Of a DNA stretch of 64,000 nucleotides, positions 12,208 through 44,985 are shown one piece after another. Both the position numbers and the translations under genes were made by a program. A model generated the notes under the pieces. The model saw only the letters and a program-made list of their open reading frames with translations, was not told the origin of the DNA and did no database searches. Positions within the stretch are counted from its first letter, which is position 1, and each line of letters opens with the position of its first letter. The stretch lies in the NCBI RefSeq assembly GCF_003334315.1, contig NZ_QOWR01000009.1; one strand, 5' to 3'. Source of the stretch: Escherichia coli. GTDB taxonomy: Bacteria > Pseudomonadota > Gammaproteobacteria > Enterobacterales > Enterobacteriaceae.

Positions 12208-12267
12208 AACACAGCGGGCAGTGATGCAACTGCCCGTTATCAACACGACTTACCAGCGGGGAAAGCG

Positions 12268-12585: not shown

Positions 12586-12662
12586 TATACTCTAAATAAT
12601 TCAAATTGGTCCGATCCGGCGCACCGTCCCAATGGCCTGGATTATAAATCTCATTATCTTAA

Positions 12663-12691
12663 TTGCAACGGGGTCCAGCCGTGGTTATAAT
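12663..12691 (+). promoter_or_regulatory. Near-consensus sigma70-type promoter (TTGCAA - 17 bp - TATAAT)
   Basis: -35 ttgcaa 12663-12668, 17-bp spacer, perfect -10 tataat 12686-12691. Confidence 0.4.
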
Positions 12692-12756
12692 TCGTTCGTT
12701 GGAACACGATGTTGCACAGGCTGTGGTGTTAGGCCTGAAAATAGTAAATAAAAGAA

Positions 12757-12781
12757 CCTGCCTCACCAGCAGGTTTTTTTA
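12757..12781 (+). terminator. Intrinsic terminator in yehK-yehL intergenic region
   Basis: Stem cctgc / gcagg with loop ctcacca (12757-12773) followed by 8 T (12774-12781). Confidence 0.5.
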
Positions 12782-12891
12782 TTTACTGTGATCTGCTTTC
12801 CAGATATTTTTCGCTCAAACAACTAATGCGCCAAACATTTATTGCGCGTAAAATATCGTTTATTTCATTAATACATTTCAGGGATGAATAT

Positions 12892-33165: not shown

Positions 33166-33338
33166 GATGAGCATTCAGATAGTGGTTCACGCGCACGGGT
33201 TGCGCACCGCCGGAGTAAGGATTTACTGAGGCTAGCGACGCCATCATAACGAGCAAAAAGTGCGATCGTCAAAGGAGAATCGTGAGGAAATGCTGCATTG
33301 CTGACATTTACGCCAGCAATGCAACGTCAAAGAACTTT

Positions 33339-44805: not shown

Positions 44806-44985
44806 CGCATCCGGCATTTGGTTCCTGTCGCCGGATGCGGCTTGAACGCCTTATCCGGCCTACAAAACCATACAAATCAGTATGTTGAGCTTATTGTAGG
44901 CCGGATAAAACGCGCCAGCGTTGCATCCGGCATTTGGCTCCTGTTGCCGGATGCGGCGTGAACGCCTTATCCGGCCTACAAAACC
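44806..44985. repeat. BIME (cluster of REP units, two ~65-bp direct copies plus inverted copy)
   Basis: gcatccggcatttgg(t/c)tcctgt(c/t)gccggatgcggc(t/g)tgaacgccttatccggcctacaaaacc occurs twice (44806-44870, 44921-44985) with an inverted REP between. Confidence 0.75.

What the first reader, a model, noticed from the sequence alone, without database searches (positions are those of the whole stretch)
12663..12781. Near-consensus promoter followed ~70 nt later by an intrinsic terminator between yehK and yehL: candidate small RNA or attenuator leader
TTGCAA-17 bp-TATAAT (12663-12691) is close to the sigma70 consensus. About 65 nt downstream lies a hairpin plus T8 terminator (12757-12781), still more than 100 nt upstream of the yehL start. 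This could produce a roughly 80-nt transcript (unannotated sRNA) or be a terminator-containing leader controlling read-through into yehLMPQ. The putative transcript contains a tiny ORF (ATG TTG CAC AGG CTG TGG TGT TAG, MLHRLWC), which could be a leader peptide or chance.
Basis: seen in the sequence. Interest (0 to 1): 0.55.

Follow-up and report, generated by a model that had tools for sequence, protein, structure and literature searches.

The report
Known orphan antitoxin small RNA OrzP
The promoter-plus-terminator unit between yehK and yehL is the already described 84-nt small RNA OrzP, the antitoxin half of the E. coli zorP-orzP toxin-antitoxin pair, left on its own in K-12-type strains after a deletion removed the toxin gene.

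Summary
TTGCAA-17-TATAAT lies at 12663-12691, followed by a stable hairpin and U-run ending at 12781. The unit is a real small-RNA gene, but it is not new. Rfam family RF02083 (OrzO-P antitoxin) matches 12705-12780 at 99.9 bits against a threshold of 60. From the -35 box to past the terminator the sequence is identical to the orzP copy next to yehL in E. coli O157:H7.

O157:H7 carries yehK-[zorO/orzO]-[zorP/orzP]-yehL in a 1240-bp spacer. This window has a 306-bp spacer that keeps only orzP, the divergent zorP promoter and about 30 nt of the zorP 5'UTR. The 29-aa toxin ORF and the OrzP pairing site are absent.

Roughly a third of complete E. coli genomes share this orz-only state. Published work (mSystems 2024) found it, detected the RNA in MG1655 by northern blot with a deletion control, and named it OrzPmg. 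Term-seq places a 3' end exactly at window 12781.

The attenuator and leader-peptide alternatives are not supported: there is no competing antiterminator, and the stop codon of the tiny ORF is not conserved. What the orphan RNA does without its toxin is still unknown. Verdict: real, correctly read as an sRNA, already known, low interest.

The parts
12698..12781 (+). orzP small-RNA gene (OrzP, called OrzPmg in K-12), 84 nt, from the inferred +1 to the mapped 3' end
   Evidence: Rfam RF02083 matches 12705-12780 at 99.9 bits against a gathering score of 60, over model positions 1-76 of 76. The sequence is identical to the O157:H7 copy next to yehL and to MG1655. Term-seq places a 3' end at MG1655 2204485, which is window 12781. 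A northern blot in MG1655 is reported in PMC11264685. The 5' end is inferred from the -10 box and from where complementarity to zorP begins; I did not map it.
12698..12717 (+). 5' target-recognition (seed) region of OrzP, GUUGGAACACGAUGUUGCAC, containing the V1 triplet ACG that marks the P type
   Evidence: In O157:H7 this stretch pairs with the zorP 5'UTR about 72-92 nt upstream of the zorP AUG, with a duplex energy of -39.0 kcal/mol. V1 is ACG in OrzP and GAA in OrzO (Wen 2014, PMC3919570).
12663..12691 (+). orzP sigma-70 promoter: -35 TTGCAA at 12663-12668, 17-bp spacer, -10 TATAAT at 12686-12691
   Evidence: Found. It is identical in all orzP copies aligned. In orz-only loci the -35 is conserved in 99.7% and the -10 in 98.9% (PMC11264685 Table 3).
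12749..12781 (+). Intrinsic terminator of orzP: core stem at 12755-12761 and 12769-12775, extended by A-U pairs, with U7 at 12774-12780
   Evidence: Folds. Columns invariant across all Orz copies. Term-seq 3' end at 12781.
12641..12668 (-). Orphaned zorP promoter: -10 TATAAT at 12646..12641, 16-bp spacer, sharing the palindromic -35 TTGCAA at 12668..12663 with orzP
   Evidence: Found. It aligns with the zorO and zorP promoters of O157:H7. In orz-only loci the zor -10 is conserved in 100%.
12603..12634 (-). Remnant of the first ~30 nt of the zorP 5'UTR, ending at the deletion junction that joins it to sequence just downstream of the yehK stop
   Evidence: Alignments. PMC11264685 reports 27-29 nt retained in more than 99% of orz-only genomes. 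The exact ends are approximate because the zorP +1 was not mapped here.

Best explanation
The unit is the orzP gene. A constitutive-type sigma-70 promoter (12663-12691) starts an 84-nt RNA at about 12698, and an intrinsic terminator ends it at 12781.

[quoted passage not shown] For the sister pair zorO-orzO it has been shown that this pairing covers the region needed for translation and that repression requires RNase III but not Hfq.

In this K-12-type genome a deletion removed zorO-orzO, the zorP ORF and the OrzP pairing site. What remains is orzP, the zorP promoter and about 30 nt of the zorP leader. OrzP is therefore an expressed orphan antitoxin with no cognate target in cis.

Shown: the identity, the architecture, the absence of toxin and target from the window, and the 3' end and expression (from the literature).

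Inferred: the exact +1, and that the pairing mechanism established for OrzO also applies to OrzP. Its present function, if any, is unknown. The simplest reading is a harmless relic that persists because losing a toxin is tolerated while losing an antitoxin first is not.
For: - Family match: Rfam OrzO-P at 99.9 bits, full length.
- Identity: the sequence is identical from the -35 box through the terminator to the yehL-proximal copy in O157:H7 and to MG1655. The V1 triplet is ACG, the P type.
- Synteny: Orz matches lie between yehK and yehL in O157:H7, ECONIH2, SF-468, E. whittamii and two unnamed Escherichia species. Every one of these also has a 29-aa Zor ORF.
- Toxin absent from the window: the best tblastn hit is 26 bits, against 79 bits in the controls.
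- Pairing site absent from the window: the only match to the seed is the gene's own opposite strand. The seed duplex with the remnant transcript is -21.4 kcal/mol, weaker than the background mean of -25.3 and far from the -39.0 obtained with zorP.
- Population: 5235 of 5426 complete E. coli genomes hold the orz-bearing spacer but only 3398 hold zor.
- Literature: orz-only strains and the OrzPmg northern with a deletion control (PMC11264685); Term-seq 3' ends at window 12781 and 12742 (PMC7815308); ~85-nt sRNAs with primer-extension-mapped starts in EDL933 (PMC2887945); repression that requires RNase III and does not require Hfq (PMC3919570).
Against: Nothing contradicts the identity. The gaps are these.

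- I could not read a transcription-start table. The Thomason 2015 paper is not held, so the +1 at 12698 is inferred.
- Repression by pairing was demonstrated for OrzO-zorO and not directly for OrzP-zorP.
- The strong conservation of the promoter and the RNA in orz-only strains, and zero to two substitutions in the four orz-only loci I compared, could mean it is more than a relic. The sample has no statistical power either way.
Confidence: 0.94

Rival explanations
1. Terminator-containing leader (attenuator) of yehLMPQ. Transcription from the 12663-12691 promoter is mostly stopped at 12781, and regulated read-through sets yehL expression.
For: The terminator lies on the same strand, 111 nt upstream of the yehL ATG. 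The consensus scan found no promoter-like site between 12782 and 12892. Adams 2021 lists both 3' ends in its 'upstream ORF' class, at -111 and -150 from yehL. There are weak, sub-threshold Rfam hits to Thr_leader (26.2 bits against 55) and Trp_leader (22.3 against 41).
Against: There is no alternative structure. In the nascent RNA up to 12768 the 5' arm of the terminator is unpaired. Forbidding the terminator gains only a marginal fold (-11.8 against -11.6 kcal/mol). The core terminator pairs have probability of at least 0.97. The leader-type Rfam hits only reflect the A-rich hairpin and U-run. The same unit sits between zorO and zorP in O157:H7, where no operon follows it. The RNA accumulates as a discrete sRNA. 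Passive leak-through into yehL is not excluded.
Confidence: 0.05
2. The orphan OrzP is kept by selection for a toxin-independent job. It might regulate other mRNAs in trans through its 5' seed, or give immunity against a re-acquired zorP toxin gene.
For: The promoter and transcribed region are almost invariant in about 1800 orz-only genomes. The RNA is still made in MG1655. In four orz-only loci the seed is unchanged, and the only two substitutions in the RNA fall in a predicted hairpin loop. The authors of PMC11264685 raise this idea themselves.
Against: No target is known. No site in the 64-kb window pairs better than background. E. coli diversity is so low over 84 nt that conservation proves little. 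Lab strains descend from very few isolates. The uniform 27-29-nt remnant suggests a single deletion that spread, which would by itself explain the uniformity.
Confidence: 0.22
3. The transcript is a tiny mRNA for the 7-aa peptide MLHRLWC (12709-12732), acting as a leader peptide or micro-protein.
For: The ATG and an in-frame stop exist.
Against: The ATG lies 11 nt from the +1 with no clear Shine-Dalgarno sequence and sits inside the pairing seed. Among Orz copies the reading frame is 5, 7 or 9 codons long or runs past the RNA end. One orz-only strain has TAG changed to TGG.
Confidence: 0.01

Closest known systems
OrzP (sRNA-2) of E. coli O157:H7 EDL933, and OrzPmg of E. coli K-12 MG1655
   Same: Same RNA sequence, promoter, terminator and position immediately upstream of yehL. 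MG1655 differs from the window by a single base, at 12624 outside the RNA.
   Different: In EDL933 the cognate toxin gene zorP lies divergently upstream. Here, as in MG1655, it is deleted.
OrzO, antitoxin of zorO (Rfam RF02083 covers both)
   Same: Same family, same terminator and overall architecture, 5'-end seed, divergent arrangement. Pairing to the toxin 5'UTR is Hfq-independent and RNase III-dependent.
   Different: The V1 triplet is GAA rather than ACG, the central segment differs, and the RNA is 82 nt rather than 84. OrzP does not repress zorO.
IstR-1/tisB and OhsC/shoB type I systems
   Same: The antitoxin sRNA is encoded divergently from the toxin, not overlapping it, and pairs through its 5' end with a long toxin 5'UTR.
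   Different: The sequences are unrelated. Those loci are intact in K-12. Only two ohsC-only strains are reported, against about 30% orz-only.

Membership tests
Rfam RF02083 OrzO-P antitoxin sRNA | Covariance-model score at or above the curated gathering score (60 bits) over the full model | tested here: met
   99.9 bits, model positions 1-76 of 76, E = 5.6e-17. It is the only such hit in the 64-kb window.
Rfam RF02083 OrzO-P antitoxin sRNA | Own sigma-70 promoter and intrinsic terminator giving an RNA of about 80-85 nt | tested here: met
   Promoter. Terminator. The length from the inferred +1 to the Term-seq 3' end is 84 nt. An ~85-nt band is reported in EDL933 and a northern in MG1655.
Rfam RF02083 OrzO-P antitoxin sRNA | Position in the yehK-yehL spacer of Escherichia | tested here: met
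   An exact 24-mer from the terminator was found in only three species representatives, all Escherichia.
OrzP subtype (as opposed to OrzO) | V1 triplet ACG in the seed, and sequence identity to the zorP-linked copy | tested here: met
   The seed GUUGGAACACGAUGUUGCAC is identical to O157:H7 copy 2, whose neighbouring toxin is the T3S variant ZorP. The V1 definition comes from PMC3919570.
Complete type I toxin-antitoxin module (zor-orz) | Divergently encoded 29-aa hydrophobic Zor toxin ORF | tested here: not met
   No Zor-like ORF anywhere in the window: the best tblastn hit is 26 bits inside other genes, against 79 bits in the positive controls. The spacer is 306 bp, against 703-1240 bp in zor-bearing strains.
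Complete type I toxin-antitoxin module (zor-orz) | At least 15 continuous or 17 discontinuous nucleotides of complementarity between the sRNA 5' end and a toxin mRNA 5'UTR | tested here: not met
   Within the window the only match is the gene's own opposite strand. The remnant minus-strand transcript pairs no better than background. The rest of this strain's genome was not available to me.
Transcription attenuator / leader (Thr, Trp, Phe leader type) | Antiterminator structure mutually exclusive with the terminator | tested here: not met
   the 5' arm of the terminator is unpaired in the nascent RNA, and no stable alternative forms when the terminator is forbidden.
Transcription attenuator / leader (Thr, Trp, Phe leader type) | Conserved leader peptide ORF, and a family score above threshold | tested here: not met
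   The ORF length is not conserved. Thr_leader scores 26.2 against 55, Trp_leader 22.3 against 41, and Phe_leader 19.1 against 55.
Hfq-dependent trans-acting sRNA | Hfq binding and Hfq-dependent regulation of distant targets | not testable with these tools
   OrzO represses zorO without Hfq (PMC3919570). The RIL-seq supplements were not held.

The most novel reading that the evidence does not exclude
The orphan OrzP is not a relic. Either it is kept because its 5' seed now regulates other transcripts, or because it immunises orz-only strains against re-acquisition of zorP. Alongside this, the orphaned zorP promoter, which shares its -35 hexamer with orzP, may now produce an antisense RNA across the 3' end of yehK.
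Probability: 0.2. Interest if true: 0.5.

Novelty: already known. Interest (0 to 1): 0.12.

Why it matters
For this scan it matters little. The element is a curated Rfam family, and the orphan K-12 copy was described and shown to be expressed in 2024. The case does show that reading sequence alone found the ends of a real sRNA gene correctly, and one that RefSeq annotation still omits.

The open biological question is what an expressed type I antitoxin does in the third of E. coli strains that lack its toxin, laboratory K-12 among them. The published authors have already posed it.

Tried and rejected
- **Transcription-start data.** The Thomason 2015 dRNA-seq paper is not held. The Cappable-seq supplements contain no entry for this region. 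The +1 therefore remains inferred.
- **RIL-seq partners of the yehK-yehL spacer.** No supplements are held.
- **Minus-strand 3' ends from the orphaned zorP promoter.** The Adams 2021 tables list none at MG1655 2203900-2204399 or 2204500-2204599.
- **Selection test on the orphan RNA.** Only four divergent orz-only loci were compared, with 0-2 changes in the RNA. That is too few for any conclusion.
- **Genome-wide trans-target prediction.** Not possible: only the 64-kb window is held, and short seeds fall below the usable BLAST E-values in the 28-Gb collection.
- **Minus-strand Rfam OrzO-P hit at 12750-12860 (25.2 bits).** Rejected, because it only reflects the bidirectional shape of the terminator hairpin.
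- **Weak tblastn hits to ZorO (for example 25763-25713, 26.5 bits).** Rejected as hydrophobic segments at other positions in the window, a third of the control score.

Full report
**Observation**

The window is the E. coli yehI-yehK-yehL-yehM region. It is 100% identical over the spacer to an O20:H12 isolate and differs from K-12 at one base.

- TTGCAA at 12663-12668, a 17-bp spacer, and TATAAT at 12686-12691, matching 10 of 12 consensus positions.
- A hairpin with core stem 12755-12761 and 12769-12775, followed by seven T (12774-12780), then A at 12781.
- The 8-codon reading frame at 12709-12732.

The T-run is 7, not 8. By itself the promoter match is no more than shuffles give: 3 sites against 3.1 expected. 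The 88-nt stretch folds better than shuffles, with z = -3.6. The terminator pairs have probability of at least 0.97.

**Identity**

A covariance-model scan gives a full-length match to Rfam RF02083, the OrzO-P RNA antitoxin family. The match covers 12705-12780 on the plus strand at 99.9 bits against a gathering score of 60, with E = 5.6e-17. It is the only such match in the 64-kb window.

OrzO and OrzP are the sRNA antitoxins of the duplicated type I toxin-antitoxin locus zorO-orzO / zorP-orzP. That locus was discovered between yehI and yehL of E. coli O157:H7 EDL933. There, ~85-nt sRNAs were seen on northern blots and their starts were mapped by primer extension (PMC2887945).

**Comparison with complete loci**

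The yehK-yehL spacer varies in length between strains:

| Strain | Spacer length |
|---|---|
| O157:H7 (L001) | 1240 bp |
| SF-468 | 779 bp |
| ECONIH2 | 703 bp |
| K-12 and this window | 306 bp |

L001 has two Orz matches on the plus strand. Upstream of each, on the minus strand, lies a 29-aa ORF. These are MDTLTQKLTVLIAVLELLVALLRLIDLLK (ZorO) and its T3S variant (ZorP).

From the -35 box to beyond the terminator, the window is identical to the yehL-proximal copy of L001. Its seed carries the V1 triplet ACG, which distinguishes OrzP from OrzO, whose triplet is GAA (PMC3919570). The element is therefore orzP.

**What is missing**

To the left of the promoter, homology to the zor loci continues through the minus-strand -10 (TATAAT at 12646..12641) and about 30 nt of zor 5'UTR. 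It then stops at a junction with sequence just downstream of the yehK stop codon.

- No Zor-like ORF exists anywhere in the window. The best tblastn hit is 26 bits, against 79 bits in the controls.
- The only sequence complementary to the OrzP seed is the gene's own opposite strand.
- The seed duplex with zorP mRNA is -39.0 kcal/mol, at the expected place about 72-92 nt upstream of the AUG. With the remnant minus-strand transcript it is -21.4, weaker than the window background mean of -25.3.

So this is an antitoxin gene without its toxin and without its target site.

**Polarity of the change and frequency**

An exact 24-mer of the terminator was found in three species representatives: E. whittamii and two unnamed Escherichia species. 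All three have one or two complete zor-orz pairs between yehK and yehL. The orz-only state is therefore derived by deletion.

Among 5426 complete E. coli genomes, 5235 hold the orz-bearing spacer but only 3398 hold the zor gene and leader. About 1837 genomes, or 34%, are thus orz-only.

**Already published**

PMC11264685 (mSystems 2024) reports the following:

- About 30% of E. coli genomes are orz-only.
- More than 99% of these keep 27-29 nt of the zor 5'UTR, and 96% are of the orzP type.
- The MG1655 sequence is 100% identical to EDL933 OrzP.
- The RNA is detected by northern blot in MG1655 and lost in a deletion strain. The authors named it OrzPmg.

Adams et al. 2021 Term-seq tables list plus-strand 'orphan' 3' ends at MG1655 2204485 and 2204446. 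A 2025 paper lists orzP among the MG1655 sRNAs. The RefSeq records, including NC_000913.3, carry no feature there. That is why the element looked unannotated.

**Mechanism**

For OrzO-zorO the following was shown (PMC3919570; PMC11264685):

- The sRNA's 5' end pairs with 18 nt of the toxin 5'UTR.
- Either 15 continuous or 17 discontinuous pairs are enough for repression.
- Repression needs RNase III and does not need Hfq.
- The paired region overlaps the stretch exposed after processing of the UTR, which is required for efficient translation.

That the same mechanism holds for OrzP-zorP is an inference from sequence. In this genome nothing remains for OrzP to act on in cis. The default reading is a tolerated relic, since toxin loss is harmless while antitoxin loss is not. 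A retained or new function is possible but untested.

**Rivals**

- Attenuator: no antiterminator competes with the terminator. The leader-family Rfam hits are far below threshold. The same unit also occurs between zorO and zorP, where no operon follows it. Passive leak into yehL cannot be excluded, because no promoter-like site was found in the 111-nt spacer.
- Leader peptide: the frame is 5, 7 or 9 codons long, or unterminated, in different Orz copies. One orz-only strain changes the stop to TGG.

**Verdict**

It is a known family member and a known orphan copy. Interest is low. The only open question is the function of the orphan antitoxin, which is already posed in the literature.

Noticed in passing
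window 12663-12668 (both strands): The palindromic hexamer TTGCAA serves as the -35 box of both divergent promoters, orzP on the plus strand and the zorP remnant on the minus strand. The two promoters overlap completely at -35, so toxin and antitoxin initiation may exclude each other.
   Followed up: partly
window 12634 down to about 12215, minus strand: The orphaned but intact zorP promoter now points antisense into the 3' end of yehK. The next minus-strand terminator-like hairpin is at 12236..12215. A ~400-nt yehK antisense RNA is therefore possible. No minus-strand 3' end is listed there in the Adams 2021 tables, and start-site data could not be consulted.
   Followed up: partly
L001 about 2113-2140, compared with window 12586-12603: O157:H7 has a GGGGGAA...TTCCCCC bidirectional terminator just after yehK (the zorO 3' end). 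The K-12-type deletion removed it, so the orzP terminator is the first terminator downstream of yehI-yehK in this window.
   Followed up: no
window 12742 (MG1655 2204446, plus strand): There is a second Term-seq 3' end inside OrzP, in the A/U-rich linker. It would give a ~45-nt 5' fragment carrying the seed and the first hairpin. It is probably a processing or decay product.
   Followed up: no
L001, L003, L004, L010, L011 (yehI, yehK, yehM): The neighbouring yeh genes are annotated as pseudogenes in several strains. yehI is frameshifted or has an internal stop, yehK is frameshifted in the two single-copy zor-orz strains, and yehM has an internal stop or frameshift.
   Followed up: no
L009 (strain MLI110), equivalent to window 12724 and 12731: This orz-only variant has two substitutions, both in the loop of the predicted central hairpin. 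One converts the stop of the tiny ORF to TGG. The same variant bases occur in the E. whittamii orzP-like copy.
   Followed up: partly
window 44899-44976 (-) and 33170-33250 (-): There are two other Rfam matches above threshold: naRNA4 (REP-derived nucleoid-associated RNA, 88.3 bits) and the Peptidase-S11 RNA motif (72.8 bits).
   Followed up: no
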